The notes under the pieces: generated by a model | Database searches by the model: none | Seen by the model: only the letters and a program-made list of their open reading frames with translations | Told to the model about the DNA's origin: nothing | Assembly: GCA_964366905.1 (NCBI GenBank) | Contig: CAYIVQ010000001.1 | Span: 1-45,156 of the forward strand | Length of the DNA stretch: 45,156 nt | Direction of reading: 5' to 3' | DNA from: an uncultured Candidatus Saccharibacteria bacterium | GTDB lineage: Bacteria; Patescibacteriota; Minisyncoccia; GWC2-36-17; WO2-46-25 | In this document: in pieces, positions 3,486-45,156 of the stretch | Position numbering within the stretch: the stretch's first letter is position 1 | Layout: every line of letters begins with the position of its first letter | Program-made: the position numbers and the translations under genes

Positions 3486-5774
3486 TTATTCAAAATGAAT
3501 TTTTGCGTTAAATCGCGCAAGATAATTTTTCAGTTTCGGATGGCGGGTTAGTTCCGAGTCTTCTTTAAGCAATTGTATTGCTTCTTCGCGCGCTTCTTTT
3601 ATTAAAATTTTGTTAGTGAGCGACGCCATGGTTAAATCCGGCAGACCGGATTGGCGAGTGCCGAGAAAATCCCCCGGCCCTCTGATTTCCAAATCCTTTT
3701 CCGCGAGCTCAAACCCGTTCTGGCAATTTATTAATGCTTTCAGCCGTCTGCTATTTGCCAATGTCGTATTTTCCGCGAATAAAAGGCAGTATGATTGATA
3801 TTCTCCTCGGCCCACTCTGCCTCTGAATTGATGAAGTTGCGCCAAACCGAAATGCTCCGCCCCTTCAATAAGCATCAAAACGGCATTTGGCACATCAATG
3901 CCGACTTCTATGACTGAAGTTGAAACTAAAATATTGAAGCGATTGGCCTTGAATTCCTTCATGATCCGCTCTTTTTCTTGCGGCTTCATTTTGCCGTGCA
4001 ACATTTCTATTTTCAGATCGGGGAAAATTTCACTGGAAAGTTTTTGATATTCTTCTTTGACAGTTTTGACTTCTTTTTTAAGCAATTCTTGCTGATATGT
4101 TTTTTCGCTTTTGATTTTTGAATCTTCCTGCGCGTCTATTCTCGGACAAATCACAAATGCTTGCCTGCCTTTTCTAATCTCTTCGCGAACAAAATCATAA
4201 GCAGACGTTCGTTCTGAAGGAGTTATTATTTTTGTAACAATATTTTTACGATTTTTCGGCATCTCATTAAGCAAAGAAATATCCAAATCGCCGTATAACG
4301 TGAGAGTGAGAGTGCGCGGTATCGGAGTGGCAGTCATTGATAAAAGATGGGGCATCAGACCGCTTACCGTTTTATATCTTTGCAAAAGTTCAGCCCGCTG
4401 ATTAACACCAAAACGATGCTGTTCATCAAGCACGATAAGTCCTAAGGAAGGGAAAGAGACTTTTTCTGAAATTAGCGCGTGAGTTCCAGTAGTAATTAAA
4501 AGCTTTTTGGACGTTAGCTGATTTAAAAATTCCTGTTTTTTCAGCTTATATTCCGACTTAACTTCAGAATCAAATATTTCAGCGCTGTTGCCGGTAAGCA
4601 GACCGACATTAAAGCCAAATTCGGCAACCATACTGCTTAAAGTATGAAAATGCTGGCGGGCAAGCACTTCGGTTGGCGCCATTATGGCAATTTGGCGGCC
4701 TTTAGAAGCCGCGTTTAACGCGGCAATCGCCGCCACGACCGTTTTACCGGATCCAACATCGCCTTCAAGCAAGCGATTCATCGGGATATTTTTTGACATA
4801 TCCTGTAAAATTTCCCACGCGGCCTTGCGTTGAGAATCAGTCAGCGTGAAAGAAAGAGAAGCGACGAATTTTTTTGTTTTTTCTATGTCAAAAGGTATCG
4901 GTGGCGCGGCAGATTTTTTTATTTTTCGTCTTGCTTTCAGTATAATCAGTTGAATGAGAAGCAATTCTTCAAAAGCCAGCCGTCTTTTCGCTTCTTTCAC
5001 TTCATCAGTATTTTCAGGAAAATGAATTTTTAAAATAGCGGAGCTTATGGGAAGCAGATTATGCTTCTTTATGATTTCTTGCGGGAGAATCTCTTCCATT
5101 TGCGCGGCTTGCCCGTCATACGGCGAGTGCTCCCGTTTTGTCCAAGAGCTTTGCGATTGGCGCACAAAACGCAGTCCAGCGAGGCTTTTGCCGAGTCGTG
5201 GCTCCGCTTTCTCCGTTCGCGGGTTGCCGATCGCGTTTTTCACCAGGAATCTGATCCAACGAGAAGTAATGCCCGCGGTTTCACGATATATCGGCACCAA
5301 TCCTCCAGTATGCGTATGTTCGGAAGTCGAACTTTCAAATATTCTTTCATAAGCGGGATTTTGCAAATATAAAGAGTTGCCGTAAGAAACCGCCTTTCCG
5401 GCCAAATTCACTAAACTGCCGATTTTCAGATTTCGAATCAAAAACGGCTGGTTGAACCACACTGCTTTTATCATGCCGCTTTCATCTGAAACTTCCGCTT
5501 CAGTAACATACATATTTTTTTTCCATGTCCGTTTGTTCGTTATTTTATCTATTTTCGCGCGAATAGTCGCAGTTTCACCAGGAGTCAATTCGGCTATATT
5601 TACAATTTTTGAGAAATCATCATATCGAAATGGAATATGCCGCAAAAGATCATAAACAGTATGAATGCCCAAAACTTTAAGTGGTTTGACAATCTTATAG
5701 TTGACTCCTTTTAACTTTTCTATCGGGTCGGATAAACCGATATTTTTTATATGAGTTTTACCTATCATAAACAA
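3486..5774 (-). CDS. recG: ATP-dependent DNA helicase RecG
   Basis: 762 aa. N-terminal wedge region (HIPFRYDD), Walker A GDVGSGKT, DEQHRFG box, C-terminal helicase motifs (QLHQFRGRVGRG), TRG-like end. Confidence 0.93.
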   Translation of the reverse strand: MFMIGKTHIKNIGLSDPIEKLKGVNYKIVKPLKVLGIHTVYDLLRHIPFRYDDFSKIVNIAELTPGETATIRAKIDKITNKRTWKKNMYVTEAEVSDESGMIKAVWFNQPFLIRNLKIGSLVNLAGKAVSYGNSLYLQNPAYERIFESSTSEHTHTGGLVPIYRETAGITSRWIRFLVKNAIGNPRTEKAEPRLGKSLAGLRFVRQSQSSWTKREHSPYDGQAAQMEEILPQEIIKKHNLLPISSAILKIHFPENTDEVKEAKRRLAFEELLLIQLIILKARRKIKKSAAPPIPFDIEKTKKFVASLSFTLTDSQRKAAWEILQDMSKNIPMNRLLEGDVGSGKTVVAAIAALNAASKGRQIAIMAPTEVLARQHFHTLSSMVAEFGFNVGLLTGNSAEIFDSEVKSEYKLKKQEFLNQLTSKKLLITTGTHALISEKVSFPSLGLIVLDEQHRFGVNQRAELLQRYKTVSGLMPHLLSMTATPIPRTLTLTLYGDLDISLLNEMPKNRKNIVTKIITPSERTSAYDFVREEIRKGRQAFVICPRIDAQEDSKIKSEKTYQQELLKKEVKTVKEEYQKLSSEIFPDLKIEMLHGKMKPQEKERIMKEFKANRFNILVSTSVIEVGIDVPNAVLMLIEGAEHFGLAQLHQFRGRVGRGEYQSYCLLFAENTTLANSRRLKALINCQNGFELAEKDLEIRGPGDFLGTRQSGLPDLTMASLTNKILIKEAREEAIQLLKEDSELTRHPKLKNYLARFNAKIHFE
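5112..5228 (-). repeat. intragenic GC-rich repeat, 114-nt long form, in recG
   Basis: Read on the recG strand as (G)NPRTEKAEPRLGKSLAGLRFVRQSQSSWTKREHSPYDG. The 72-nt internal segment is identical to that at 24330-24401. Confidence 0.85.
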
Positions 5775-5828
5775 TATACTATCATGTTCTTTAGTATTTT
5801 TGAATTATATTATATAATAGCTATAATC

Positions 5829-5960: not shown

Positions 5961-5980
5961 TATAATCAGTAAAACACAAG

Positions 5981-18733: not shown

Positions 18734-19300
18734 ATGAAAAAGCAAATAGAGCTTAATGCTAAAAAAGTTGAATATACCCTGAAAGTGAGCAAGCGGGCGC
18801 GAATGATGCGGCTGACTGTTTATTGCGGAGGCGATTTTGTGGTGACGGCTCCGCAAAGCGTAGGAGAAAATGTTATTGAGCAGTTTATCATTAAAAAATC
18901 ACAGTGGGTTATTGATAAGATAAATTATTTAAAACAGTTTCCCGCCGGAACTTTTACAAAAAGTAATCGGGGAGATTTTTTAAAACACAAAGATGTCGCG
19001 TTGAAGCTGGCGGAGAGGCAGATAGAATATTTTAATGATTTTTATAAACTCAAGTTTAATAAGATAAATATAAGAAATCAAAAAACTCGCTGGGGCAGCT
19101 GTTCTAAAAAAGGTAATTTGAATTTTAATTACAAAATCGTACTACTACCGCAACAACTCGCCGACTATATTATTGTCCATGAATTATGCCATCTTGGTGA
19201 ATTTAATCACTCTAAAAGATTTTGGAATCTGGTCGCCAAAATGATCCCAAACTATCAAGAGATGAGAAATGAGTTGAGGAAAAACAGAATTAGTTTATGA
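18734..19300 (+). CDS. M48/YgjP-like (DUF45) metal-dependent hydrolase
   Basis: RWGSCSKKGNLNFNYKIVLLPQQLADYIIVHELCHLGEFNHSKRFW (HExxH). Confidence 0.8.
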   Translation: MKKQIELNAKKVEYTLKVSKRARMMRLTVYCGGDFVVTAPQSVGENVIEQFIIKKSQWVIDKINYLKQFPAGTFTKSNRGDFLKHKDVALKLAERQIEYFNDFYKLKFNKINIRNQKTRWGSCSKKGNLNFNYKIVLLPQQLADYIIVHELCHLGEFNHSKRFWNLVAKMIPNYQEMRNELRKNRISL

Positions 19301-19572
19301 ACTATTTCGTCTATATTCTCAAATGTGCTGATGATACTCTTTATGTCGGCTCTACTAATGATTTGGCAAAGAGGATTATTCAACATAATACGGCAAAGGC
19401 GGGGGCGCATTACACAAAAATCCGGCGGCCGGTGGAGCTGGTATATTCGGAAACTGTGGAAACTCTTTCAAGGGCGCTCAAGCGAGAAGCTGAAATTAAA
19501 CTCTGGCGCAGGGATAAGAAAATAAAACTCATTCAACCCGCGAACACAGAGAGCGGAGCAGTCGCCGTATGA
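19297..19572 (+). CDS. GIY-YIG nuclease-family protein (UPF0213-like)
   Basis: YFVYILKCADDTLYVGSTNDLAKRIIQH...REAEIK. The last 11 codons and the stop come from the intragenic repeat. Confidence 0.85.
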   Translation: MNYFVYILKCADDTLYVGSTNDLAKRIIQHNTAKAGAHYTKIRRPVELVYSETVETLSRALKREAEIKLWRRDKKIKLIQPANTESGAVAV

Positions 19573-19576
19573 CGGC
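19535..19576 (+). repeat. intragenic GC-rich repeat, 42-nt unit, supplying the GIY-YIG C-terminus and TGA
   Basis: AACCCGCGAACACAGAGAGCGGAGCAGTCGCCGTATGACGGC. Read in its third frame (ANTESGAVAV*), with TGA at 19570-19572. Confidence 0.85.
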
Positions 19577-23493: not shown

Positions 23494-24933
23494 CTATAAA
23501 ATATTTTTGCTTGCCGCGGTGCCGGCAACGAATCCGGTGGTCCAGCAGAGTTGGAGCGAATAGCCGCCGGATGGGCGGTCAATGTTGAGCATATCTCCGA
23601 TGATATAAAGATTGGGGAAAAGGCGCGAACGCATCGTCTTTGGATCAATTTCCTCAAGCGAAACTCCACCGCTAGTAATGACGGCTTTGTCCGCACCGAG
23701 AAGTTTGTCCGCGCGCATCGGCAGGTTTTTCAGGCAAGCGATTAATTTCATTCGCTCCTCGCGCGTGATGCTATTTACTACTGTTTCCGGATTGATTTTG
23801 CACTTCGCGATAATAATGGGAGCGAGAGCGGATGGAATAATGCTGTCCAATGAATTCCTGATTTTTTTATTGCTATGTTTTTTAAATAGATCTTTCAGCG
23901 CAATATCAAGCTGTTCGTTATTTAATGATGGGAGAATATCAAGCGACATAACCACTTCTCCGCTTTTTAAAAGTTCGCCGATTGCCTTGCTCATATGCAA
24001 TACCGCGGGTCCGCTGATACCGAAATGGGTAAAAAGAATTTTTCCTCTATTTGTATTATGAACGATTTCATTTTGAATAGCGTTGATTTTTACATCCGCA
24101 ATGCTGACGCCGGAAAGTTGTTTTGCCCATGAGTCTTTTATGGCAACCGGCACAAGCGAAGGAGTGGGTATAGCGATATTATGCCCGAGCTTTTTTAGCC
24201 ACGCAAAGCCATCTCCCGCAGATCCGGTTTCCGGGTGAGAGCCTCCGCCGGCGGCAACAATGATCGCGTTGGCATGGATTTCTTTACCGTCGCGCAATAT
24301 TACGCCAGTTGCCGTCATACGACGACTGCTCCCGTTTTGTCCAAGAGCTTTGCGATTGGCGCACAAAACGCAGTCCAGCGAGGCTTTTGCCGAGTCGTGG
24401 CTCCGCTCTCTGCGTTCGCGGGTTGCCATCATACGGTGACTGCTCCGCTCTCTGCGTTCGCGGGTTGCCTTTGGCATAGACGCGCGGGAAACAATGATAT
24501 CACTAACAGGAGAATCGGATATTACCGTTACTCCGCCTTCGCGCATATATTTCACTAACACATCCCATACCGATCTCGCGCTGTCGCTGGCGGGGAAAAC
24601 CCGCTGTTCATTTTCTATTTTAGTCGCCATCCCGCGAGTATTGAAAAAGTTGAGAGTATCTTGAACGCTCCATTGCGAAAAAGCAGAAAAAAGAAATTTG
24701 CCGTCGTCTTTAAATTTTTCCAAGAATTTTCGCGTATTAAATTCCGCGTTGGTGAGATTGCATCTGCCTCCGCCGGTGATCAAAAGCTTTTTGCCAAGCG
24801 TATCATTTTTTTCAATCAACGCCACGCGCGCTCCGCATTCAGCCGCCCGCCCGGCCGCCATCATCCCCGCAGACCCTCCGCCGATGACAATGACATCCCA
24901 TATGTTATCCGTTTTTGATTTCATATAATTCAT
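23494..24933 (-). CDS. HI0933/BaiN-like FAD-dependent oxidoreductase
   Basis: WDVIVIGGGSAGMMAA, LITGGGRCNLTN, C-terminal GGYSLQLCWTTG. Interrupted in frame by 156 nt of repeat. Confidence 0.85.
   Translation of the reverse strand: MNYMKSKTDNIWDVIVIGGGSAGMMAAGRAAECGARVALIEKNDTLGKKLLITGGGRCNLTNAEFNTRKFLEKFKDDGKFLFSAFSQWSVQDTLNFFNTRGMATKIENEQRVFPASDSARSVWDVLVKYMREGGVTVISDSPVSDIIVSRASMPKATRERRERSSHRMMATRERRERSHDSAKASLDCVLCANRKALGQNGSSRRMTATGVILRDGKEIHANAIIVAAGGGSHPETGSAGDGFAWLKKLGHNIAIPTPSLVPVAIKDSWAKQLSGVSIADVKINAIQNEIVHNTNRGKILFTHFGISGPAVLHMSKAIGELLKSGEVVMSLDILPSLNNEQLDIALKDLFKKHSNKKIRNSLDSIIPSALAPIIIAKCKINPETVVNSITREERMKLIACLKNLPMRADKLLGADKAVITSGGVSLEEIDPKTMRSRLFPNLYIIGDMLNIDRPSGGYSLQLCWTTGFVAGTAASKNIL
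24311..24469 (-). repeat. intragenic GC-rich repeat, tandem 114-nt + 42-nt units
   Basis: 24311-24424 (long) and 24425-24466 (short), plus GCC. Translated on the gene strand in the alternative frame as ATRERRERSSHRMM-ATRERRERSHDSAKASLDCVLCANRKALGQNGSSRRMT. Confidence 0.9.
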
Positions 24934-25012: not shown

Positions 25013-26041
25013 ATGACAAAAGGATTTTGGGAAAAAGATAAGTCGCTTTTCACGCTTGCGCCAATGGCGGACGTGACGGACGCGGCATTCCGGCAAATTA
25101 TTGCCAAATACAGCAGGCCTTATGGCCCCGACGCAATATGGACGGAATTTGTTTCCTGTGACGGCTTGTGTTCTGACGGCAAAGACGCACTGATGCATAA
25201 TCTCTGGTTCACGGAAGTCGAGCGCCCGATTGTGGCGCAATTTTTCGGATCCAAGCCGGATAATTTTTACCGGTGCGCTTTGCTTGCTCAAGAACTCGGT
25301 TTTGACGGCATTGATATCAATATGGGATGTCCGGATAAAAAAGTTGAAAAACAGAATGCCGGCGCGGCGCTGATGCGCAATCATGAATTGGCTCAAAAAA
25401 TAATCATTGAAACGAAGCGTGGAGCGGGAAATCTGCCTGTGTCTGTTAAAACCCGCATCGGGTACGATTCCGATATTTTAGACGAATGGCTGCCAAGATT
25501 GCTTGAAACGGAACCGGACGCCATCACAATTCACGCGCGCACGCGCAAAGAAATGTCTTTAGTGCCAGCTCGCTGGGAAGCGATAGCGCGAGCGGTAGAA
25601 ATCGCACGCCGATATGATTCTTCGCCGAATCGCGCGCTGATTATAGGAAACGGAGATATCGTGAGCATGATAGACGCGGAAGAAAAAGTGCGGCAATCAG
25701 GCGCGGACGGCGCGATGATAGGGCGGGGGATTTTCGGCAACCCATGGTTTTTTAATAGAGAAAAAGATATAAACACAATAAGCATTGAAGAAAAATTATT
25801 AGTGCTGATTGAACACGCTTTTTTGTTTGAAAAATTATTTGCCGGCAACCCGCGAACAGAGAGAGCGGAGCAGTCGTCGTATGACGGCATAAAAAGTTTT
25901 AGCGTAATGAAAAAGCATTTTAAAGCGTATGTGAGCGGATTTGACGGGGCCAAAGATTTGCGAATTAAACTAATGGCCGCGCGCGACGCCAACGACGTCG
26001 CGCAAATCGTAGAAAAATATCGTGCTTTTTTTGTAAAGTAA
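25013..26041 (+). CDS. tRNA-dihydrouridine synthase
   Basis: LAPMADVTDAAFR, DGIDINMGCP, ITIHARTR, GNGDI, IGRG. Confidence 0.9.
   Translation: MTKGFWEKDKSLFTLAPMADVTDAAFRQIIAKYSRPYGPDAIWTEFVSCDGLCSDGKDALMHNLWFTEVERPIVAQFFGSKPDNFYRCALLAQELGFDGIDINMGCPDKKVEKQNAGAALMRNHELAQKIIIETKRGAGNLPVSVKTRIGYDSDILDEWLPRLLETEPDAITIHARTRKEMSLVPARWEAIARAVEIARRYDSSPNRALIIGNGDIVSMIDAEEKVRQSGADGAMIGRGIFGNPWFFNREKDINTISIEEKLLVLIEHAFLFEKLFAGNPRTERAEQSSYDGIKSFSVMKKHFKAYVSGFDGAKDLRIKLMAARDANDVAQIVEKYRAFFVK
25847..25888 (+). repeat. intragenic GC-rich repeat, 42-nt unit, in dus
   Basis: AACCCGCGAACAGAGAGAGCGGAGCAGTCGTCGTATGACGGC read as NPRTERAEQSSYDG. Confidence 0.85.
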
Positions 26042-28565: not shown

Positions 28566-30416
28566 ATGAAAAAAACCGGTCCGACAATCAGAATATTGGA
28601 ATTGTTCAAAAGCCGAAAGAAAGCGGTTCTGATAATGGCGGTTTTTATCACGGCCTCGACAGGACTTGATTTGTCCGTGCCTCTTATTTCTCAAAAACTG
28701 ATTGACAGGCTTATTGAATTTTTCAAAACAGGCGGAGCGCCGCCATTTGGTTTTCTTTTTATATCTGCAATCGGTATTTTAGCTGCTACCATCTTGAGTC
28801 GCGTCTTCAGTTCGCTTTATAATTACAATCTTTTTAAAACCGTGACTCAAGTGGAAGATGAGGCAAGACATGCGGCTTTTGAAAAATATTTGCGTTTGCA
28901 CGCTCTATTTCATCACAAATCATCAAGCGGCCAAATTATCGGCAGGATTGAGCGGGGCGGCGGGGCAATTTACGCAATCGCGCATGATATTTTCGGCCAC
29001 AATCTCATACCGCCGCTAATAGTGTTTATCAGCACATTGGGAGTGCTTTTATTTAAAAATCCATTTATCGCTTTGGTAGTATTCGTGCCATTTCCTCTTT
29101 ACCTTTTAACCATACGGCGGCTTACCGATAAAATATATAATATTGAGAAAGTGGTTAACGAGCAATTTGAAGATGTATCTAAAGAAGCGTATGACGTGGC
29201 CGGCAATGTGCTGACCGTCAAAAAATTCGCTGAAGAGAACGCGGAAGCTGCTAAGCAAAAAAGATTGATGGATAAAGCGAGGCTGACGCAATACGGAGCT
29301 GAACAGCTTTGGAATGTATTAGAAAATATCCAAACATTATTCGCGACCTTAGGTAGAATAGCGGTTATTATTTTGGGAGGCTTTCTAGTCTTGAAAGGTA
29401 TGAGCACTATCGGCGAATTTGTATTGTTCGTTTCCCTTCAAAATATGGTGTATTCTCCTTTAGTGAAATTATCAATCGTATTTCCTCGCTTGCGACGCAA
29501 CACAGCCCGCGCGGAGCGTTTATTTGATATAATAGATGAACCTATCAGCGTTACCGACAAGCTGGACGCGAAAACGCTGCCTCCGCTGGAAAATTCAATT
29601 ATATTCCACGATGTTTCATTCCGCTATGGCAACCCGCAAACGCAGAGAGCAGAGCAGTCATCGTATGATGGCCAAGCTCATCAATGGGCTGTACAAAATA
29701 TCAATATTGAAATTCCGGCGCGCGCGACAGTGGCGCTGGTGGGAAGAAGCGGTAGCGGCAAAACCACTTTTATCAATTTATTGCTTCGCTCATACGACCC
29801 GACAGAAGGAGATATATTGATTGATGGGCAGAATCTGAAGGATGTTAAACGCGAAAGTTTGCTTAAGCAAGTAGCTGTAGTTCCGCAAGAGGTAGATCTC
29901 TTTTCCCGCTCTATTTTAGGCAATATCGCGTACGGGAAGCCGGAAGTAAGTCGTGAAGAAGTCATTCAGGCGGCAAAGACCGCTCTCGCGCATGACTTTA
30001 TTATGAAAACAGAGAATAGATATGATACTATAGTAGGGGAACGAGGCATGAAGCTTTCCGGAGGCGAACGCCAGCGGATCGGAATCGCGCGGGCTGTATT
30101 GCGCGACCCGAAAATCCTGATTTTAGACGAAGCTACCAGCCATTTAGATACCGAAAGCGAACAACTAATCTCTCAAGCAACAGACGATTTAGTAAAAAAC
30201 AGGACAACTATTATCATCGCGCATCGCCTCTCCACAGTTTTAAACGCTGATATGATTTTAGTGTTCAATGATGGAAAAATTGAAGCAAGCGGAAAACACA
30301 ATGAATTATTGAAAACAAGCGCCACATATCAAAAACTTTATTCTTTGCAGTTCCGCGATAACGACAACCCGCGAACACAGAGAGCGGAGCAGTCGCCGTA
30401 TGACGACAAATCTTAA
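28566..30416 (+). CDS. ABC exporter, fused permease/ATPase (MsbA-like)
   Basis: Six-TM N-terminal half. NBD with GRSGSGKTT, LSGGERQRIGIARA, ILILDEATSHLD. Confidence 0.92.
   Translation: MKKTGPTIRILELFKSRKKAVLIMAVFITASTGLDLSVPLISQKLIDRLIEFFKTGGAPPFGFLFISAIGILAATILSRVFSSLYNYNLFKTVTQVEDEARHAAFEKYLRLHALFHHKSSSGQIIGRIERGGGAIYAIAHDIFGHNLIPPLIVFISTLGVLLFKNPFIALVVFVPFPLYLLTIRRLTDKIYNIEKVVNEQFEDVSKEAYDVAGNVLTVKKFAEENAEAAKQKRLMDKARLTQYGAEQLWNVLENIQTLFATLGRIAVIILGGFLVLKGMSTIGEFVLFVSLQNMVYSPLVKLSIVFPRLRRNTARAERLFDIIDEPISVTDKLDAKTLPPLENSIIFHDVSFRYGNPQTQRAEQSSYDGQAHQWAVQNINIEIPARATVALVGRSGSGKTTFINLLLRSYDPTEGDILIDGQNLKDVKRESLLKQVAVVPQEVDLFSRSILGNIAYGKPEVSREEVIQAAKTALAHDFIMKTENRYDTIVGERGMKLSGGERQRIGIARAVLRDPKILILDEATSHLDTESEQLISQATDDLVKNRTTIIIAHRLSTVLNADMILVFNDGKIEASGKHNELLKTSATYQKLYSLQFRDNDNPRTQRAEQSPYDDKS
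29631..29672 (+). repeat. intragenic GC-rich repeat, 42-nt unit, in the ABC exporter NBD
   Basis: AACCCGCAAACGCAGAGAGCAGAGCAGTCATCGTATGATGGC read as NPQTQRAEQSSYDG, between FRYG and the Walker A strand. Confidence 0.85.
30366..30407 (+). repeat. intragenic GC-rich repeat, 42-nt unit, forming the ABC exporter C-terminal tail
   Basis: AACCCGCGAACACAGAGAGCGGAGCAGTCGCCGTATGACGAC read as NPRTQRAEQSPYDD, 3 codons before the stop. Confidence 0.85.
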
Positions 30417-33461: not shown

Positions 33462-35597
33462 ATGGAAAACCACGAGTCATTTTTTTATGTCATTATTCTG
33501 ACGGTCAGCTTTCTATTATTTATCTCTTCGCTGGCTGCCGTTTTTATTAAACGATTATACCTGCCGTACACGGTGGTTTTAGTCATAGTCGGAATAATTT
33601 TAAGCGTATTTTCCAGATTTGAATTGTTTGATTTTCTAAATGTTCTACAACTCTCTCCTGATCTTGTATTTTACCTGTTCCTGCCAATGCTTGTGTTTGA
33701 AGGAGCGTATAATATACGCTTTTTAGAGCTCAAATCATCATTAAAAACGGTTTCCGTCATGTCGATAGTAAGTTTGTTGATATCGGCATTCTTCATAGGC
33801 GCCGTATTATTTTATCTTTTTTCATATTTTGGGATCGCTGTTCCATTTATTACACTTTTGCTTTTCGGATCGTTGATTTCCGCGACTGACCCTATAGCCG
33901 CTCTTGCCATATTTCGCGAAATCGGCGTAGCGAAGCGCCTGCGCCTTCTGCTTGACGGAGAGAGTTTGTTTAACGACGGTACCGCTTTGGTTTTATTTCA
34001 AGTTGTTATGAGCGTAGCGCTTGCCGGCACGTTTTCAACAGGGATATTGGGCACTGCTTTCGTTAAGTTTTGGATTTTAGTCATAGGCGGGGCGGCGCTT
34101 GGCGCGATAATGGGCTGGATTTTTTCAAAAATCATTGAGCGGGTTCACAATCTTGCCACTGTTGAAATCACGCTGACTCTTATTCTGGCCCACACAGCTT
34201 TTATCTTCGCTGAAAAATTCTTCGGAGTTTCCGGCGTAATCGCCGCTCTGTCCGCCGGACTTATGGTGGGTAATTTCGGACGTTATAAAATTTCTCCGTC
34301 AGTTCGCGATTTTATGGAGCATTTTTGGTCATACGCCGCTTTTCTTGCTAATTCGCTTATATTCCTTCTGATAGGCCTTTCTCTGCGCGGGGTATCGCTG
34401 TTTGAATACTGGCTACCTGTATTAATCACCCTTATCGTGGTAATGATTGCCAGATTTGTTTCAGTTTTCGGCGTTGTTCCGTTTACCAATAAATTATTCA
34501 AAAGAGAAGGAAAAATCCCGGCTTCCTGGCAATTCCTGCTCTCATGGGGAGGATTGCGCGGGGCATTGCCTCTTGCCATAGTATTATTGCTGCCAGCTGA
34601 TTTTGAACACAAAAATCTGCTTTTAGTACTCACTTTAAGTACGGTATTTTTCACTTTGCTTATCCAGGCCACTACCATTAAAAAATTTATCAAGCATTTC
34701 AAGCTGGATATCTTTTCATCCGAAGAAGAGCTCGCGCGCGAAGAAGTGTTTCTTATGATGGACAAAAGAATCAAACGCCAGCTTGAAAATATGGCAGGAG
34801 ACAACCGCATTCCGAAAGAAGTTTATGAAAAGCTGGACAAAATGTACTCCGACCTTTACGCAGAATCTAAAAACCGGCTGGACAAACTCGTCAAGAAAAA
34901 AGGCGAATTTTCAAATTACGAAGAAATGCTCGTTTTATTGCGCAAACAAGCGCTGAATCTTGAAAGACGCGCTTATTTAAAACTTTTTGACCAGCATGAA
35001 TTAAGCGAACGCATATTCGCTTCGCTTGACGCGAAAATAGAACGGCAAATAGACCGCATTGATCGCAAAATGCCCCAAATTTTAGAGAAGAAAATTTCTT
35101 TTTCGCACATCAAAAAAATCAAAGATTATAGTTATTGGCTTCTGCAATCAATACAGCATCCATTGGCAAAAAAATTAAGCAATCGTTTGAAACTTTCCGA
35201 AACCATACATGATTATATTCTATACAGGACAAGAAAATTCGGTTCGGAAGAAGTATTGAGAGAATTGGCCGAGCTTCACGAAGACGCCAATGATACGGAA
35301 CATCAAAAAGCGCTTCAAATTATTATGGCGCAATACAAAAAATGGCGGCAGGAAAATACTGAACGACTGGGAAATATCAGGCAAGCCGACCCTAAATTAG
35401 TCGCCGCGCTAGAATACACTCTCGCGAACTTAAGTTCGCTTAACACAGAAATAGAAATTTTGGAGGATATGCATAAAAAAGGCATAGTCCCGGAAAACAT
35501 ATTTTCTGATGTTTATGAATACTACCAGCGCCTCTACGCGCAAAAACAAAATTTACTTCTCCAGTCTAAATACAGAATGAAAAAAGACAGCATCTAA
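33462..35597 (+). CDS. CPA1-family Na+(K+)/H+ antiporter with long cytoplasmic C-terminal domain
   Basis: About 12 TM. SATDPIA, ESLFNDGTALVLF, GGLRGALPLA. ~300-aa charged helical tail. Confidence 0.85.
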   Translation: MENHESFFYVIILTVSFLLFISSLAAVFIKRLYLPYTVVLVIVGIILSVFSRFELFDFLNVLQLSPDLVFYLFLPMLVFEGAYNIRFLELKSSLKTVSVMSIVSLLISAFFIGAVLFYLFSYFGIAVPFITLLLFGSLISATDPIAALAIFREIGVAKRLRLLLDGESLFNDGTALVLFQVVMSVALAGTFSTGILGTAFVKFWILVIGGAALGAIMGWIFSKIIERVHNLATVEITLTLILAHTAFIFAEKFFGVSGVIAALSAGLMVGNFGRYKISPSVRDFMEHFWSYAAFLANSLIFLLIGLSLRGVSLFEYWLPVLITLIVVMIARFVSVFGVVPFTNKLFKREGKIPASWQFLLSWGGLRGALPLAIVLLLPADFEHKNLLLVLTLSTVFFTLLIQATTIKKFIKHFKLDIFSSEEELAREEVFLMMDKRIKRQLENMAGDNRIPKEVYEKLDKMYSDLYAESKNRLDKLVKKKGEFSNYEEMLVLLRKQALNLERRAYLKLFDQHELSERIFASLDAKIERQIDRIDRKMPQILEKKISFSHIKKIKDYSYWLLQSIQHPLAKKLSNRLKLSETIHDYILYRTRKFGSEEVLRELAELHEDANDTEHQKALQIIMAQYKKWRQENTERLGNIRQADPKLVAALEYTLANLSSLNTEIEILEDMHKKGIVPENIFSDVYEYYQRLYAQKQNLLLQSKYRMKKDSI

Positions 35598-36601: not shown

Positions 36602-36608
36602 GATTCGT
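36574..36608 (-). repeat. period-7 repeat motif H3 spanning the def stop / fmt start
   Basis: TATTCTT AATTCTT GATTCAT AATTCAT GATTCGT on the + strand. Encodes the fmt MNYESRIKN and the def ...ITNHEL*. Confidence 0.8.
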
Positions 36609-40503: not shown

Positions 40504-43170
40504 ATGAAACAAACTTTACTACCATTAATACTAATTGCGGTTTTATTTCCATTATTTACGCAAGCAGGAACATACTCTGATTCCGATGTTCCTCTGATTT
40601 TGCCGCGGTCAGTTTGGGAAAATACCGCCGATATGGTTAAACTGCTTGACTGGCTCCCGGAAGATAAAAATGGGACTTCAACTGCCGATGACAATCCGAA
40701 CAGCAATGACGCCATTCCGGATTACGCACCGATTGAAAGAATTGTAATCCACGACACCGGCTGTTCGCCAAAAAATAGCACCTGTAATAATGATAATGTC
40801 GATGAAAAGGCGATCATACAGAGCATCTACCGCAATCATGCGAAAACTCGCGGATGGGGCGATATCGGCTATCATTACATAATCGACCGCAAAGGAAATA
40901 TTTATGAGGCGCGGTTCGGCGGCAATGGCGTTCGCGGAGCGCATATTTACGACAGCAAAAACTGCCGCAATTTCAATGTAGGCACAATCGGCATCACAGT
41001 GCTTGGAAACTACGACTATTCACAGGCGCCGGAGCCCGCTTTTGTCGCGCTCGCTCAATTAACCGGTTGGCTTTCTGCCGCCAATGGAATTGATGCCGGA
41101 GCGACCGCGAAAACTTCTGTCGTTTGGGGGAATCCAAAAGTTAACGGCAATGGGAAATGCGACCTGAACTACGGCAGTTTTTCCTCGTCATTTACCGGAC
41201 CGGTTGTCTTAGGGCACAACGAAATTGAGCTGGCAAATTCCGATCCCGGCAAAAATTTTGACATGAACCGTCTGCGTGCGGAAGCAAAAAAATGGCAAGA
41301 TAAATATCAGTCTTATCTTTATCAAGAAAAAGGCAATAGCGCGGTAATGGAAATTAAAGGCGGGACAATGAAAAAAATTGCCGAATCGCCATCCGCGCTC
41401 GAAGCAGGTATTCAGCCAAAAATTATAAGCATCAACAGTTCTCAACTGTTTTTATTCCCTGAAGAAAATACCGTTAAACTTCCTGAAGGCAGTTTGGTAA
41501 AATCACGAAATAGACCGGAAATTTTCTTGATTGAAAACGGCAAAAGACGGCATATCGTCTCCGCGGCTCTATTCAATAAATTCGGCTTTATGCTTTCACA
41601 AGTCAAGGTATTATCCGACCGCGAATTGATGGGATATTCCGCCGGCGAATCATTGACTTATCCGGACGACACTCTGCTTGGCGTTAAATCAAACGGGAAA
41701 ACTTATTTGATCAAGAACGGAGGAAAACGGCATATCATATCGCAAAAAGCATTTAGACAAAACGGATTCAAAGAGAAAAACATTACTTGGGTCCAGCAAG
41801 AAGAAATTGATTCTTTGCAGGACAACGGAATCGTCGGTTTGCCGGAAGGAACTCTGGTGTCTTTAAGTAACAGCGCCAAAGCTCCAAATTACATAATAAT
41901 GGATGGTGGCAGGAAGTTAATCCCTTCATGGGAAATGTTCAATCTCTGGAAACTCAAGCGCAATAAAATATCGCTGATAGCCAAAAAAGATTTTGAAATG
42001 TATCCGGATAAAGGCGTTCTTTCATATCCCAACGGCACATTAATAACACAATCCGGCAAACCGGAAATGTATCTTGTGCATGCCGGAATAAAATATTGGG
42101 TATCAAACTATGAGACATTTAAAAAGCTGGGGTTGAACGCGGCAAAAACGGTTAAATTAAGCGCGGGAGAATTGAATAATTATCCGCGCGGGAAAGAAAT
42201 CACCACGGGGGATGATTGGCAAAAAATATTAAACCCCGCGGCTTTCGCAAAAACGCAATACGTTTTAGCAGTTGCTCCTGATAACAAAACTGCCGTAGCG
42301 CAAACGCAATCAACCTCAACTACCGATTTAATTATTAGAGTAGGACTATTTGAAGTCGGCGAAAAAGAAAATGTTTCCATAACCGCGGATAAAGACTTCA
42401 CTGTTTCCTCCGCGAAAATCGCAACTAAAAATCATAAAGCCGGAGAAACGGCGGAAATCAATTGGAATGAATCCGGCGATGCTAAACTTATATCAGATGC
42501 CGCGATTTTTACCATAAAAAGCCATGAGGCATGGAATTGGAATAAATCGGTGAATTTTAACAGTTATCGCGGATCGCTGGAGCTTGCGCGTTCGCCAAAA
42601 ACAGGCAAAATTTGGCTAATCAATCAGCTCCCACTTGAACAATATTTGCGAGGAATAGGAGAGGCGCTTAACTCCGACCCAGCAGAATATCAAAAAGCGT
42701 TTGTCATCGCCTCAAGAAGCTACGCGATGTTCCATCTGCAAAATGGCGGAAAATACGGTAAGGAAGAGATATTTCATCTGAATAATTCTTCTTCCGACCA
42801 AGTATATAAAGGCTACGCGTGGGAAAATTACGCGCCGCTTCTACCAAAAGCGGTTGAAGCAACAACCGGGGAAGTAATGAAATACAATAACAAAATCGCT
42901 AGGTCTGTTTACTCTTCAGATTCAGGCGGAATAACGAAAAACGCTTGTTCTTATTTCGGCAAAGAATTCTGCACTCCGGACTACGGATATTTAGCCGGAG
43001 GAGTCAAAGATCCTGAAGGAACAATCCGCCGAGACGCGGCGTCAATTAAGGCAAGCCACGGCGTTGGCATGAGCGCCACCGGCGCCCGTCGTCTTGCTCA
43101 ACTTGGGAAAAATTATCAGGAAGTATTGAAATACTATTATAAAGATATAACGATAGAAAAGATTTATTGA
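40504..43170 (+). CDS. secreted multidomain peptidoglycan hydrolase (Amidase_2/PGRP + four ~60-aa repeats + SpoIID/LytB domain)
   Basis: Signal peptide. IVIHDTG...GWGDIGYHYIIDRKGNIYEARFGG...TIGITVLGNY. Repeats P[ED]G[ST]L[VI]x7-10[YF]LIxNGxxRHI. C-terminal LEQYLRGIGEA...SSSDQVYKGY...SVYSSDSGG. Confidence 0.8.
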   Translation: MKQTLLPLILIAVLFPLFTQAGTYSDSDVPLILPRSVWENTADMVKLLDWLPEDKNGTSTADDNPNSNDAIPDYAPIERIVIHDTGCSPKNSTCNNDNVDEKAIIQSIYRNHAKTRGWGDIGYHYIIDRKGNIYEARFGGNGVRGAHIYDSKNCRNFNVGTIGITVLGNYDYSQAPEPAFVALAQLTGWLSAANGIDAGATAKTSVVWGNPKVNGNGKCDLNYGSFSSSFTGPVVLGHNEIELANSDPGKNFDMNRLRAEAKKWQDKYQSYLYQEKGNSAVMEIKGGTMKKIAESPSALEAGIQPKIISINSSQLFLFPEENTVKLPEGSLVKSRNRPEIFLIENGKRRHIVSAALFNKFGFMLSQVKVLSDRELMGYSAGESLTYPDDTLLGVKSNGKTYLIKNGGKRHIISQKAFRQNGFKEKNITWVQQEEIDSLQDNGIVGLPEGTLVSLSNSAKAPNYIIMDGGRKLIPSWEMFNLWKLKRNKISLIAKKDFEMYPDKGVLSYPNGTLITQSGKPEMYLVHAGIKYWVSNYETFKKLGLNAAKTVKLSAGELNNYPRGKEITTGDDWQKILNPAAFAKTQYVLAVAPDNKTAVAQTQSTSTTDLIIRVGLFEVGEKENVSITADKDFTVSSAKIATKNHKAGETAEINWNESGDAKLISDAAIFTIKSHEAWNWNKSVNFNSYRGSLELARSPKTGKIWLINQLPLEQYLRGIGEALNSDPAEYQKAFVIASRSYAMFHLQNGGKYGKEEIFHLNNSSSDQVYKGYAWENYAPLLPKAVEATTGEVMKYNNKIARSVYSSDSGGITKNACSYFGKEFCTPDYGYLAGGVKDPEGTIRRDAASIKASHGVGMSATGARRLAQLGKNYQEVLKYYYKDITIEKIY

Positions 43171-44101: not shown

Positions 44102-45156
44102 TAAGAGTCGGTTTTGAATGCGAACAATTGGAGGGAAATAGGTTTGGAGTGGGGCATACTCTCGCCCAGCTTTTGGAAGTGTTCGCGCAAATTCCGGAGA
44201 TAGAAAAACAATTCCGGTTTGTTTTACATTTCAAAAAAGAAATCCCGAAAGATAATTTTTTATCGCATCCGGTTTTTGAAAAAAGAATTTTAACAGGAGG
44301 GATAATCCCGCCCAGTTTTAATGTTTTCTATCATATCCTTATTCCGATTGCGTATTGGCGCGATAAACTAGACTTATACTTTTTCCCTTCATACATGCTA
44401 CCGGCGTTTTTTGTCGGCAAATCTATCGTTGTGCTGACCAATGATGTTTATTGGGAAGCGCATCATAGCAATCTTCCATTCAAATACCGCTTAGCTTACA
44501 GATTATTTTGCTGGTGGGCGGCAAAACGAGCCGATAAGATTTTGACTATTTCGGAATTTTCCGCCAGTGAATTGCGAAAGTTTTATAATATTTCCCGCGA
44601 AAAAATCTTTGTGAACTCATGGGGATTGGAAAAAATATTTCAAGAACTACCTAAAGACGAAAAATATCTCTCGGAAATTCAAAAAATTAAAATCCAATTT
44701 GGCATTGAGAATAAATTCTTCCTTTCCATTGGTCAAGCGTTCCCGCGCAGACATATTAAAGAAGCAATGCTCGCGTTCGCTTCAATCGCGAATCAATATT
44801 CGGACACGCAATATCTTGTCACCGCTACTGACAAATATGAACCGCCTATATTGGAGAATTTAGTCAAAGAAATCAACCAAAAAGCCGGCAGACGAGCGAT
44901 TATTTACGTCAAATATCTTGATCGAAAAATATTGCCGCATTTGATGAACGAAACGCTCGCGCTGATTTACGTTTCCGATAAAGAAGCGCTCGGCCTGCCG
45001 CCGCTTGAAGCGCTCGCTTGCGGCCGTCCGGCGATCGTGAAAGACAACGAGATCTCGCGCGAACTTTTCGGCGAGCAAGGATATTTCGTTGCAGATACAA
45101 ACAACCCGCGAACGCAGAGAGCGGAGCAGTCACCGTATGATGGCAACCCGCGAACG
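44098..45156 (+). CDS. GT4 (GT-B fold) glycosyltransferase, 3' end beyond the window
   Basis: Not in the ORF track because no stop is reached. ATG at 44098 overlaps the upstream TGA. My own translation gives MIRVGFECEQLEGNRFGVGH...SDKEALGLPPLEALACGRPAIV (E-x7-E type motif), then runs into the 42-nt repeats. Confidence 0.78.
   Translation, partial: MIRVGFECEQLEGNRFGVGHTLAQLLEVFAQIPEIEKQFRFVLHFKKEIPKDNFLSHPVFEKRILTGGIIPPSFNVFYHILIPIAYWRDKLDLYFFPSYMLPAFFVGKSIVVLTNDVYWEAHHSNLPFKYRLAYRLFCWWAAKRADKILTISEFSASELRKFYNISREKIFVNSWGLEKIFQELPKDEKYLSEIQKIKIQFGIENKFFLSIGQAFPRRHIKEAMLAFASIANQYSDTQYLVTATDKYEPPILENLVKEINQKAGRRAIIYVKYLDRKILPHLMNETLALIYVSDKEALGLPPLEALACGRPAIVKDNEISRELFGEQGYFVADTNNPRTQRAEQSPYDGNPRT
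45103..45156 (+). repeat. intragenic GC-rich repeat, tandem units (second truncated by the window edge)
   Basis: 45103-45144 is AACCCGCGAACGCAGAGAGCGGAGCAGTCACCGTATGATGGC. It restarts at 45145. Read as NPRTQRAEQSPYDG-NPRT. Confidence 0.85.

What the first reader, a model, noticed from the sequence alone, without database searches (positions are those of the whole stretch)
24311..24469. GC-rich, nearly stop-free 42-nt / 114-nt repeat family found only inside protein-coding genes (reference locus: tandem 114+42 nt in a flavoprotein gene)
The consensus unit is AACCCGCGAACGCAGAGAGCGGAGCAGTCACCGTATGATGGC. It is 42 nt with 26/42 G+C, in a visibly AT-rich window. I count ten units at eight loci:

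- 5112-5228 (recG)
- 19535-19576 (GIY-YIG)
- 24311-24424 plus 24425-24466 (this gene)
- 25847-25888 (dus)
- 29631-29672 and 30366-30407 (ABC exporter)
- 45103-45144 plus 45145 onward (GT4)

Seen directly in the sequence:

1. Every copy lies in a CDS and none is intergenic.
2. Both size classes are multiples of three, so the host reading frame is restored.
3. The copies are translated in different frames: NPRTQRAEQSPYDG in recG, dus, the ABC exporter and GT4, but ATRERRERSSHRMM here. The peptide is therefore not the conserved entity.
4. The third sense frame contains a single TGA, and that TGA terminates the GIY-YIG ORF.
5. The antisense frames are also almost stop-free. This generates the spurious track ORFs with ...TAPLSAFAGC.
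6. All eight loci carry the element in the same orientation relative to the host coding strand (five loci in plus-strand genes, two minus-strand genes).

This behaviour parallels the Rickettsia palindromic elements, which are selfish DNA inserted in frame in genes, although the sequence looks unrelated. The strict co-orientation suggests an RNA-level or transcription-coupled property. This is the strongest candidate in the window for an undescribed system.
Basis: partly seen in the sequence, partly recalled or inferred. Interest (0 to 1): 0.9.

Follow-up and report, generated by a model that had tools for sequence, protein, structure and literature searches.

The report
In-frame 42-nt repeat of CPR bacteria
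A GC-rich 42-base repeat, with longer modular forms, has been copied into many genes of groundwater Patescibacteria and is apparently read through as a harmless 14-residue loop; this is a miniature, seemingly undescribed cousin of the Rickettsia palindromic elements, and its gene, strand and frame bias comes from its target motif plus selection, not from an RNA-level mechanism.

Summary
The repeat family is real. The window holds nine units (one cut by the window end) at seven loci in six genes, all on the coding strand and all frame-preserving.

Collection scans added 152 loci, giving 127 unique insertion sites, all in Patescibacteria assemblies apart from one 1.5-kb contig labelled Gammaproteobacteria.

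Close orthologues have precise empty sites, so these are insertions. There are no terminal inverted repeats and no target duplication. Targets resemble the unit-to-unit junction (AT)GACGGC|AACCC. Tandem arrays and nested hairpin "cores" (27-350 nt) are common.

- Intergenic copies exist, and only these have lengths that are not multiples of three.
- Antisense copies sit inside genes with clear Pfam domains (PheT, Fpg, a GT4).

The remaining bias (73 sense against 12 antisense in ORFs) has two causes. The target motif is mostly in frame as Asp-Gly-Asn/Lys. One antisense frame, AVIRRLLRSLRSRV, is completely absent. Copies outside ORFs show no orientation bias (9 against 8).

Best reading: a non-autonomous, RPE-like selfish insertion. 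It probably spreads by homology-guided copy-in and is filtered by peptide tolerance. The mechanism is inferred, not shown.

The 42-mer also sits inside a conserved, uncharacterised small-RNA-like element. New variant of a known kind.

The parts
5112..5225 (-). 114-nt long-form copy in recG (gene 3486-5774, minus strand), phase 0. It encodes NPRTEKAEPRLGKSLAGLRFVRQSQSSWTKREHSPYDG.
   Evidence: The JACQDT01 recG orthologue lacks it and carries two other arrays elsewhere in the gene.
19535..19576 (+). 42-nt copy at the 3' end of the GIY-YIG gene (19297-19572), phase 1. The element's TGA at 19570-19572 is the host stop, giving the C-terminus ...QPANTESGAVAV*.
24425..24466 (-). 42-nt copy and first unit of the tandem pair in the HI0933-like flavoprotein gene (23494-24933, minus strand), phase 2.
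   Evidence: Absent from orthologue P0002 and its DNA L153.
24311..24424 (-). 114-nt long-form copy and second unit of the tandem pair. Left half 24424-24400, 72-nt hairpin core 24399-24328, right half 24327-24311.
   Evidence: The sense RNA folds at -48.8 kcal/mol with z = -3.6, which is an outlier within the family. The two units together lie in a low-confidence excursion (residues 153-203, pLDDT < 50) between two beta strands.
25847..25888 (+). 42-nt copy in dus (25013-26041), phase 0. It encodes NPRTERAEQSSYDG.
29631..29672 (+). 42-nt copy in the ABC exporter gene (28566-30416), phase 0, between the membrane domain and the ATPase domain.
30366..30407 (+). 42-nt copy in the same ABC exporter gene, phase 0, ending 9 nt before the end of the ORF (two codons before the stop).
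45103..45144 (+). 42-nt copy in the GT4 glycosyltransferase gene (runs off the window end), phase 0. It is identical to the copy at 24425-24466.
45145..45156 (+). First 12 nt of a second, tandem unit, cut by the end of the window.
41143..41151 (+). Unoccupied target site AACGGC|AAT in the amidase/SpoIID gene (40504-43170). The insertion point lies between 41148 and 41149, in phase 0. The 91%-identical relative L145 carries a 42-nt copy exactly here.

Best explanation
This is a non-autonomous, selfish or neutral short interspersed DNA element of Patescibacteria (CPR bacteria).

Structure:
- The basic unit is 42 nt: a 25-nt left part and a 17-nt right part that forms a small hairpin.
- Longer forms carry nested hairpin 'cores' between the two parts.
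- It has no terminal inverted repeats, makes no target duplication and encodes nothing.

Shown:
- Copies are true insertions, polymorphic between close relatives.
- They occur singly or as head-to-tail arrays.
- They land at sites that resemble the junction between two units, (AT)GACGG C|AA CCC. The similarity decays with distance from the junction on both sides.
- Subfamily variants are shared among copies within one genome.

Inferred mechanism: new copies are made from existing copies by a homology-guided copy-in. Two routes are possible. Either a nascent DNA strand switches template at the short junction homology, or a single-stranded fragment spanning a unit junction anneals at a junction-like site at the replication fork and is sealed in. 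The second route resembles short-patch double illegitimate recombination. No dedicated transposase is required.

Inferred: insertion is blind to transcription. The strong excess of coding-strand, phase-0 copies in ORFs then has two sources. The first is that the target motif occurs mostly as the codons GAC-GGC-AAx (Asp-Gly-Asn/Lys), typical of turns. The second is purifying selection on the translated product. The two very hydrophilic sense frames (NPRTQRAEQSSYDG and TRERRERSSRRMT) survive as surface loops. The stop-containing frame survives only at C-termini. The Arg/Leu-rich antisense frame AVIRRLLRSLRSRV never survives.

In-ORF copies are therefore inferred to stay in the mRNA and to be translated.
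For: Insertion status and empty sites:
- Reference locus: orthologue P0002 (88% identical) lacks exactly the 52 residues. Its DNA (L153) shows the empty site.
- L145 is filled and window 41148|41149 is empty at 91% nucleotide identity. L042 (84 nt) is filled and L132 is empty at 94%.
- recG orthologues carry inserts at three different places.
- The same site holds different forms in different genomes: 96 against 114 nt, 72 against 42, and 84 against 42.

No TIR and no TSD.

Junction-like targets:
- Flank frequencies are -1 C 98%, -2 G 82%, -3 G 74%, -4 to -6 about 50% (C, A, G), +1 and +2 A 62-66%.
- The empty sites read AACGGC|AA, AATGAC|AACCC and AAG|GCAACT.

Arrays and modular cores.

Genome-specific subfamilies: the window's GTCA(C/T)CG..GATGGC and JACQDT01's AACCCAGAG.

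Translation filter:
- 80 of 81 in-ORF arrays are multiples of 3, and the single exception spans a masked run of N.
- All reliable non-multiples lie outside ORFs.

Frame and strand:
- Observed counts are S0 60, S1 2, S2 11 and antisense 12.
- The target 7-mer in ORFs gives S0 59, S1 5, S2 13, A0 33, A1 17, A2 2.
- The A0 frame is never used (p about 1e-11).
- GRAVY is -2.2 and -2.7 for the favoured frames and +0.14 with charge +4.8 for A0.
- Non-ORF copies run 9 sense against 8 antisense.

Loop location:
- The insert is a stretch with pLDDT < 50 between two strands.
- It sits at a position where other homologues carry unrelated insertions.

Mechanistic analogue: the abstract of preprint 10.1101/2023.11.22.568220.
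Against: - No step of the copy-in mechanism is observed directly.
- Some sites have almost no junction homology apart from the C at -1 (the 'TTC|' class, e.g. window 19535, L004, L112). The near-invariant C at -1 could mean recognition by an enzyme.
- The 3' hairpin keeps pairing through compensatory changes at three pairs. This suggests a recognised structure, which a passive mechanism does not need.
- Near-identical units in different Patescibacteria lineages need either horizontal transfer or a conserved source.
- The search pattern fixed 22 of the 25 left-half positions, so the apparent conservation is partly due to ascertainment.
- Gene calls rest on ORF length plus a home-made codon classifier that is 94.6% accurate on 240 nt.
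- Translation is inferred. There are no transcript or peptide data.
Confidence: 0.6

Rival explanations
1. Enzyme-mediated single-strand transposition. A trans-acting HUH/Y1 nuclease, of the IS200/IS605 TnpA or RAYT type, recognises the 3' hairpin on one strand and inserts the unit 3' of a short target ending in ...GGC. The element would then be a minimal PATE- or REP-like derivative.
For: - No TIR and no TSD, asymmetric ends, and a fixed orientation of the two ends.
- C at -1 is present in 98% of sites even where the rest of the flank is unrelated.
- The 3' hairpin (27-32 pairing with 37-42) has 3 pairs with compensatory changes; 6 cells against 1.2 expected, matched by 0 of 500 shuffles.
- It carries a U:G pair that would be an A:C mismatch on the other strand.
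- Tandem insertion next to its own end is expected when the right-end cleavage site equals the target.
Against: - No such gene was seen next to any copy, and no left and right ends were found bracketing a gene. No systematic search for such a gene was possible.
- At 42 nt the unit is far smaller than known left-end/right-end architectures. That statement rests on my own knowledge of IS608.
- Flank similarity decays gradually on both sides, including downstream (AA, AACCC). This is not a feature of IS200/IS605 targets.
- There is no orientation link to a local replication direction: plus- and minus-strand copies lie 1.4 kb apart in the window.
Confidence: 0.2
2. One reading: an RNA-level or transcription-coupled element. 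Either the unit is inserted via the transcript, or it is kept because its sense-strand RNA structure does something in mRNAs.
For: - Sense excess in ORFs of 73 against 12. This is still above the 60:40 expected from the target motif (p = 2e-7).
- The reference 114-nt copy folds well as sense RNA (z = -3.6) and not as antisense (z = -0.4).
- The long-form core has a double compensatory change, CGTTTTGT/ACAAAACG to CTGTTTGT/ACAAACAG.
- The 42-mer sits in sense orientation inside a promoter- and terminator-bearing small-RNA-like element.
Against: - Copies outside ORFs show no orientation bias (9 against 8).
- Antisense copies sit inside genes with clear Pfam domains.
- The antisense deficit is frame-specific, which points to the peptide and not the RNA.
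- Family-wide fold z-scores are weak: mean -1.3 sense and -0.65 antisense. The 42-mer alone gives z of about -1.
- No Rfam family matches.
- Hairpin covariation is equally compatible with single-stranded DNA.
Confidence: 0.08
3. A functional or ancestral peptide module, such as a conserved linker or tag, and not an insertion.
For: The phase-0 peptide NPRTQRAEQSSYDG recurs in many proteins.
Against: - Precise presence/absence between orthologues 88-94% identical.
- Five reading frames are used.
- Nucleotide identity includes synonymous sites.
- Copies also occur in non-coding DNA.
- Hosts are unrelated housekeeping enzymes, and the copies sit at variable positions.
Confidence: 0.02
4. An assembly or chimera artefact of metagenome assemblies.
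For: Several arrays sit at contig ends, e.g. L005, L044, L073, L077 and L121. This shows that assemblers break at the repeat.
Against: - The same element is found in contigs from many independent assemblies: RIFCSP, NC_groundwater, Hainich H41/H43/H51, TPA MAGs, several JGI sets and a Logan run.
- It is nearly always frame-preserving inside long ORFs.
- Orthologous filled and empty pairs are collinear.
Confidence: 0.01

Closest known systems
Rickettsia palindromic elements (RPE)
   Same: - Short repeated DNA inserted in frame into unrelated housekeeping genes.
- Read through as extra peptide segments compatible with the fold.
- Also found outside ORFs.
- No transposase of its own.
The RPE features are taken from review PMC10969869, which cites Ogata et al. 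2000.
   Different: - RPEs are about 100-150 bp whole-element palindromes, reported there as encoding a conserved peptide per family.
- This unit is 42 nt, is not a whole-element palindrome, and is used in five frames and both orientations.
- It forms head-to-tail arrays.
- It targets sites resembling its own unit junction.
- It has modular nested cores.
- It occurs across several Patescibacteria lineages, not in one alphaproteobacterial genus.
Sequence relatedness to RPEs was not tested.
[quoted passage not shown]
   Same: Small, non-coding, multi-copy and insertion-polymorphic. Shorter forms look like internal deletions of longer ones: the 42-mer equals the 114-mer minus the core between the GGAGC repeats.
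   Different: - No terminal inverted repeats, no target-site duplication and no related autonomous IS were found.
- It is GC-rich, not AT-rich.
- The window does hold a classic TIR-bearing MITE (630-773 and its copies), and that one is intergenic.
IS200/IS605-derived PATEs and REP/REPIN-RAYT elements
   Same: Asymmetric ends without TIR or TSD, a small conserved hairpin on one strand, and insertion next to a short conserved sequence.
   Different: - Those elements are essentially extragenic and depend on a Y1/HUH enzyme. None was identified here.
- The unit is much smaller.
- The target is similar to the element on both sides of the insertion point.
[quoted passage not shown]
   Same: Ectopic single strands anneal at microhomologies and are integrated during replication (abstract of 10.1101/2023.11.22.568220). 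This matches the two-sided, decaying junction homology and the lack of any element-encoded machinery.
   Different: SPDIR events are rare, with variable sequences. Here one defined unit has been propagated to many sites per genome, with a conserved hairpin.
GC clusters and 'byp' elements of yeast mitochondria
   Same: Short GC-rich mobile insertions inside protein-coding genes of an AT-richer genome. This comparison rests on my own knowledge (Lang et al. 2014).
   Different: Byps break the frame and are bypassed by the ribosome. Here the in-ORF copies are multiples of three and stop-free, so read-through translation is the simpler reading.

Membership tests
Rickettsia palindromic elements | In-frame insertion into ORFs of unrelated genes, compatible with read-through | tested here: met
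   80 of 81 in-ORF arrays are multiples of 3 and open in the host frame. Hosts have normal Pfam domains. Translation itself is inferred.
Rickettsia palindromic elements | Whole-element palindrome of about 100-150 bp folding into one long hairpin | tested here: not met
   The 42-mer has two small separate hairpins and z of about -1. Long forms of 111-114 nt reach the size range, but only the window copies fold markedly.
Rickettsia palindromic elements | Sequence similarity to RPE families and occurrence in Rickettsia | not tested
   No RPE sequences were at hand. All hits are in Patescibacteria MAGs or contigs, apart from one 1.5-kb contig labelled Gammaproteobacteria.
MITE | Terminal inverted repeats | tested here: not met
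   The ends AACCCGCG... and ...TATGACGGC are not complementary. The repeat finder reports no TIR.
MITE | Target-site duplication of fixed length | tested here: not met
   Filled/empty comparisons show exact 42-, 84- or 156-nt gains, with only pre-existing microhomology at the junctions.
MITE | A cognate autonomous IS sharing the ends | tested here: inconclusive
   No left and right ends bracket a gene in 978 kb of loci. Complete genomes were not available.
IS200/IS605-type (PATE) or REP/RAYT | Conserved subterminal hairpin on one strand | tested here: met
   The helix 27-32 pairing with 37-42 is kept in 92% of cells. Three of its pairs show compensatory changes, and it has a strand-specific U:G pair.
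IS200/IS605-type (PATE) or REP/RAYT | Y1/HUH transposase (TnpA or RAYT) present in the genome | not tested
IS200/IS605-type (PATE) or REP/RAYT | Predominantly extragenic location | tested here: not met
   At least 85 of 127 unique sites are inside ORFs.
tmRNA (considered for the GTGCAG small-RNA-like element that contains the 42-mer; its frame-1 reading ANAESGAVVV* looks like a tag) | tRNA-like domain with acceptor stem, T-arm and CCA end | tested here: not met
   ARAGORN finds no tmRNA in these loci or in any of the 153 sequences. There is no Rfam tmRNA hit even at E <= 10. No T-arm motif lies nearby.
Diversity-generating retroelement (variable repeat / template repeat) | Differences between copies confined to template adenines | tested here: not met
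   Variable positions are mainly G12, C13, G30, T31, T34 and C39.

The most novel reading that the evidence does not exclude
The element could be a transposase-free mobile DNA of a new type. Its only 'machinery' would be a unit-junction homology plus a 3' hairpin. It would be seeded from, or exchanged with, a conserved small-RNA-like element of Parcubacteria (the 'GTGCAG' element, which carries one copy in sense orientation). It would spread between Patescibacteria lineages through their natural DNA uptake, and then copy itself into genes by single-strand annealing or template switching.
Probability: 0.2. Interest if true: 0.8.

Novelty: new variant of a known kind. Interest (0 to 1): 0.55.

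Why it matters
- It extends 'selfish DNA inside protein-coding genes', so far best known from Rickettsia, to the candidate phyla radiation. It does so with a much smaller, modular unit.
- It gives a clean natural data set: six possible frames, only some surviving. This shows how target-motif codon context and peptide tolerance together create an apparent strand and frame specificity.
- These repeats inflate CPR proteins with 14-52-residue loops, create spurious antisense ORFs and break assemblies at arrays. Annotators of Patescibacteria MAGs should mask them.
- If the copy-in mechanism proves to need no transposase, it would be a simple model for how short sequences proliferate in streamlined genomes.
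- Filled and empty sites between close relatives could serve as strain markers.

Tried and rejected
- **tmRNA idea.** In the conserved 'GTGCAG' element, the frame-1 reading of the 42-mer (GCG AAC GCA ... GTA TGA = ANAESGAVVV*) looks like a tmRNA tag with the stop in a hairpin. I rejected it because there is no tRNA-like domain, no ARAGORN or Rfam hit, and paralogues of that element lack the 42-mer altogether.
- **Small ORF in that element.** Frame 0 stays open through three indels that are multiples of 3, but two of nine copies carry an in-frame TGA or a +1 shift upstream. This is not a conserved ORF.
- **The 'GTGCAG' element as master gene (SINE-like).** This is not supported. Copies without the 42-mer show the empty junction AAAATTCGG|AAAG, so the RNA element is itself a target. 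Genome-specific subfamilies also point to copy-to-copy spread.
- **Conserved neighbour genes of that element.** None found.
- **DGR-type adenine mutagenesis.** The variable positions are not adenines.
- **Intron-like removal.** L039 (42+139 nt, not a multiple of 3) first looked like a frame-restoring excision. It turned out to lie in intergenic DNA upstream of a DsbA-like gene.
- **Autonomous version.** Left and right ends are separated by up to 350 nt only. The one 5.9-kb pair is two unrelated partial copies.
- **Phage vector.** No hit in IMG/VR.
- **RNA-structure significance.** The strong z-score of the reference copy does not generalise.
- **Literature.** Searches by sequence, peptide and key words found nothing specific.
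Full report
**1. Observation in the window**

The consensus 42-mer matches four places within 3 mismatches. None of 100 dinucleotide-preserving shuffles gives any match. Relaxed and half-site scans bring the total to nine units at seven loci:
- 5112-5225 (minus strand, 114 nt)
- 19535-19576 (plus strand)
- 24425-24466 and 24311-24424 (minus strand, tandem 42 + 114)
- 25847-25888, 29631-29672 and 30366-30407 (plus strand)
- 45103-45144, plus the first 12 nt of a further tandem unit cut by the window end

The 114-nt form is the 42-mer split after position 25 by a 72-nt core. That core is bracketed by a GGAGC direct repeat.

All copies lie on the coding strand of genes with clear Pfam domains: RecG, GIY-YIG, an HI0933-like flavoprotein, Dus, an ABC exporter and GT4. 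Phase 0 is used five times. Phase 2 is used in the flavoprotein. Phase 1 is used in GIY-YIG, where the element's TGA is the stop. The window has about 40% G+C and the unit 62%.

The description is therefore right, apart from the count ('ten at eight loci') and a 3-nt overrun at recG.

**2. Distribution**

A degenerate left-half pattern found 32 stretches in the one-genome-per-species collection. All are in Patescibacteria MAGs, apart from one 1.5-kb contig labelled Gammaproteobacteria. About 20 are in one Azambacteria MAG, JACQDT01. The others are labelled Giovannoni-, Zambryski-, Lipton- and Saccharibacteria.

IMG/VR gave none.

The window is not JACQDT01: orthologous genes are 65-77% identical in nucleotides. 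Its flavoprotein's named relatives are Azambacteria and Paceibacteria.

In 978 kb I found 188 arrays, which collapse to 127 unique sites.

One caveat applies throughout. The search pattern fixed 22 of the 25 left-half positions, so the apparent sequence conservation is partly due to ascertainment.

**3. Anatomy**

The left and right parts are adjacent in 188 units. Otherwise they are separated by cores of 27, 30, 54, 69 or 72 nt (multiples of 3), or of 28, 50, 55, 97, 140 or 350 nt.

Cores are hairpin modules, sometimes nested. The 140-nt core is a core within a core, and the 350-nt one holds a long palindrome.

Head-to-tail arrays of 2 to 4 units are frequent. There are no terminal inverted repeats.

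The right-hand hairpin (27-32 pairing with 37-42) is kept in 92% of cells. Three of its pairs show compensatory changes, more than in any of 500 shuffles. The long-form core shows a double compensatory change.

Thermodynamic z-scores are unimpressive family-wide: mean -1.3 for sense and -0.65 for antisense. The reference copy (z about -3.6 to -3.9) is an outlier.

**4. These are insertions**

At the reference locus, the closest orthologue (P0002, 88% identical, 427 aa) lacks exactly the 52 inserted residues. Its DNA shows ...CCG AAA|GTA GCT GGC..., against the window's ...CCA AAG[156 nt]GCA ACT GGC....

Other filled/empty pairs:
- L145 against window 41148|41149 (91% identity). Empty: AAAAGTTAACGGC|AATGGG.
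- L042 against L132 (94%). Empty: AATGAC|AACCCATG.
- L012 and L146 against window at about 15980.
- The JACQDT01 recG arrays against the window's recG, and the reverse.

Orthologous sites can hold different forms: 96 against 114 nt, 72 against 42, and 84 against 42. This implies either hot spots or in-place conversion between copies.

No target duplication is created. The gain is exactly 42, 84 or 156 nt.

**5. Target**

Over 116 unique sites the upstream flank reads C at -1 (98%), G at -2 (82%), G at -3 (74%), then C, A and G at about 50%. The downstream flank starts with AA (62-66%).

The target therefore resembles the junction between two units...ATGACGGC|AACCC..., and the similarity decays on both sides. 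The empty sites confirm that this similarity pre-exists the insertion.

A minority of sites (the 'TTC|' class) has almost none.

**6. Genic, strand and frame statistics**

I trained a six-frame codon classifier on ORFs of at least 400 codons (94.6% correct on 240-nt pieces) and combined it with ORF length.
- In-ORF sense: 73 sites (phase 0: 60; phase 2: 11; phase 1: 2).
- In-ORF antisense: 12 sites.
- Small-RNA-element loci: 4 by the automatic rule.
- Uncertain or intergenic: 38. Of these, 5 are probably genic sense and 2 probably genic antisense.

Antisense copies lie inside a GT4 glycosyltransferase gene, pheT and fpg. PheT and Fpg carry a sense and an antisense copy in the same protein.

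So 'only in genes' and 'strictly co-oriented' are properties of this window only.

In ORFs, 80 of 81 arrays are multiples of three, and the single exception contains a masked run of N. Every reliable non-multiple (97, 139, 182 nt) lies outside ORFs. This argues that in-ORF copies are translated and not removed.

**7. Why the bias**

I counted the junction-like 7-mer ACGGC|AA in ORFs of at least 300 codons from the same loci. The counts are S0 59, S1 5, S2 13, A0 33, A1 17, A2 2.

The sense frames match the observed 60:2:11 closely, so the phase-0 excess follows from the motif being read mostly as GAC-GGC-AAx.

Orientation is more skewed than the motif predicts (73:12 against 60:40, p = 2e-7). 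The deficit is frame-specific. The most available antisense frame would translate as AVIRRLLRSLRSRV (GRAVY +0.14, charge +4.8), and it is never used (0 of 85, p about 1e-11). The antisense frames PSYDDCSALCVRG and RHTTTAPLSAFAG are used (8 and 4 times, against an expected 17 and 2 on the same scale).

The two favoured sense frames are the most hydrophilic (GRAVY -2.2 and -2.7).

Copies outside ORFs show no orientation preference relative to flanking genes (9 against 8; Fisher p = 0.006 against the in-ORF copies).

These results point to a filter at the peptide level after insertion, and not to transcription-coupled insertion. The samples are small and the gene calls approximate.

**8. Location in proteins**

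In the flavoprotein, the insert falls in a loop where other homologues carry unrelated insertions. An AlphaFold2 model was built on a shallow alignment (mean pLDDT 69.7). In it, residues 153-203 have pLDDT below 50, between strands 143-150 and 206-213.

Relative positions of copies along host ORFs are spread from 0 to 0.98. Phase-1 copies occur at C-termini.

**9. Mechanism (inferred)**

The relevant features are:
- two-sided, decaying junction homology
- exact unit-length gains
- tandem arrays
- register-shifted internal duplications
- conversion between forms at one site
- genome-specific subfamilies
- no element-encoded or adjacent enzyme

Together these fit copy-to-copy propagation. The route could be template switching, or annealing of a junction-spanning single strand at junction-like sites. 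This is akin to short-patch double illegitimate recombination (abstract of 10.1101/2023.11.22.568220).

Against a purely passive process stand the conserved hairpin, the invariant C at -1, and the sites without homology. I therefore keep a hairpin-recognising HUH-type enzyme as the main rival.

How near-identical units came to be in different Patescibacteria lineages is unresolved. It could be horizontal transfer or a conserved source.

**10. The small-RNA-like element**

Sixteen loci (nine unique, from different genomes) carry the 42-mer at a fixed place in a conserved block of 155-294 nt. The block starts GTGCAGTATTCTTGAATTAGTCCGAAC and ends in a terminator-like ...GACAATTTCAAGTTTTTCTTTGG. 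It has variable hairpins at four sites and no conserved neighbour genes.

In five species-representative genomes this is the only pattern match. It matches no Rfam family and is not a tmRNA.

Paralogues without the 42-mer (L064, L099, L131) show the empty junction AAAATTCGG|AAAG. They run into a conserved leader...ATCGGCTCGAACCAT...TTTTAATCAT-ATG. In L099 and L131 a copy with the 42-mer and a copy without it lie in inverted orientation, and in L099 they flank a small membrane-protein gene.

This element is thus another target, or a reservoir, of the 42-mer. It is not demonstrably its source.

**11. Comparison and verdict**

The behaviour is that of the Rickettsia palindromic elements (features from PMC10969869). 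The element is not a member of that family by structure, and it fails the defining MITE tests of TIR and TSD.

I found no description of it, within the limits of the held library.

It is best filed as a new variant of a known kind: coding-compatible selfish repeats. Interest is moderate, and higher if propagation proves to need no transposase.

Noticed in passing
L023:6126-6279 (-), L029:4742-4900 (+), L068, L082, L084, L131:9277-9449 (+), L007, L013, L014: A conserved small-RNA-like element of 155-294 nt. It reads GTGCAGTATTCTTGAATTAGTCCGAAC ... CCCCCCGCGAAAATTCGGC[42-mer]AAGGCGGCGG..CCGCACCGCTGACAATTTCAAGTTTTTCTTTGGCGGC. It has variable hairpins at four sites, a terminator-like 3' end, no conserved neighbour genes and no Rfam match.
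   Followed up: partly
L099:10126-10444 (+) and 11401-11156 (-); L131:9277 (+) and 10016 (-); L064:187: Paralogues of that element lack the 42-mer (empty junction AAAATTCGG|AAAG). In L099 and L131 a copy with the 42-mer and a copy without it lie in inverted orientation, and in L099 they flank a small membrane-protein gene with a pilin-like N-terminus. A TTGACT-17-TATTCT promoter-like site overlaps the GTGCAG start. The arrangement looks like a cassette with long inverted repeats.
   Followed up: partly
L013, L029/L061, L064, L082/L102, L084, L099, L131 (positions): A strongly conserved leader, CAAAACCGCAAAAGAACCC..AAAAACATCGGCTCGAACCATATTTTAATTTTGGGGGAAGAAAATTTTTTAATCAT, lies directly upstream of ATG starts in different genomes. 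It is preceded either by the GTGCAG element or by a tRNA 3' end. Its function is unknown.
   Followed up: no
window 630-773, 1036-1179 (69%), 5822-5965 (99%): A classic intergenic MITE of about 144 nt with 16-nt terminal inverted repeats (CTTTGAATTACGAAAT...ATTTCGTAATTCAAAG). It contrasts with the TIR-less genic 42-mer.
   Followed up: partly
window 2751-2813 and 3397-3467: A 63-nt direct repeat and perfect 29+29-nt palindromes (TCTAACCTAAATTACGTGTATAATTACTA|TAGTAATTATACACGTAATTTAGGTTAGA) flank the ORF at 2835-3419.
   Followed up: no
window 35777-35837, 36362-36408, 36560-36606: Clusters of short TGATT(C/T)(G/T/A)TGATTC-type repeats lie around the minus-strand ORFs 35594-36601 and 36591-37073.
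   Followed up: no
L087:2376-2445 and L109 (pheT); L133:1914-2028 (+ strand) and the minus-strand copy (strand-oriented offsets 1528-1570) (fpg): Single genes carry both a sense and an antisense copy. The pheT orthologues L087 and L109 (76-84% identical) each have a 69-nt antisense copy. The two copies lie about 140 nt apart, and each orthologue lacks the other's copy.
   Followed up: yes
P0033, P0018, P0040, P0055 at alignment A4 columns 196-240: The flavoprotein loop that received the element is hypervariable. Other Patescibacteria homologues carry unrelated insertions of 5-40 residues at the same place.
   Followed up: no
L005, L044, L050, L067, L073, L077, L114, L121 (contig ends): Many contigs end inside an array of the element. 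The repeat therefore fragments Patescibacteria assemblies, and copies at contig ends cannot be placed in their genes.
   Followed up: no
window 19297-19576 and L019:2921-3534: The GIY-YIG gene neighbourhood carries a copy in both the window genome and JACQDT01. The positions differ: the gene's 3' end in the window, and the 5' end of the next gene in JACQDT01. A link between this small nuclease and the element is pure speculation.
   Followed up: no
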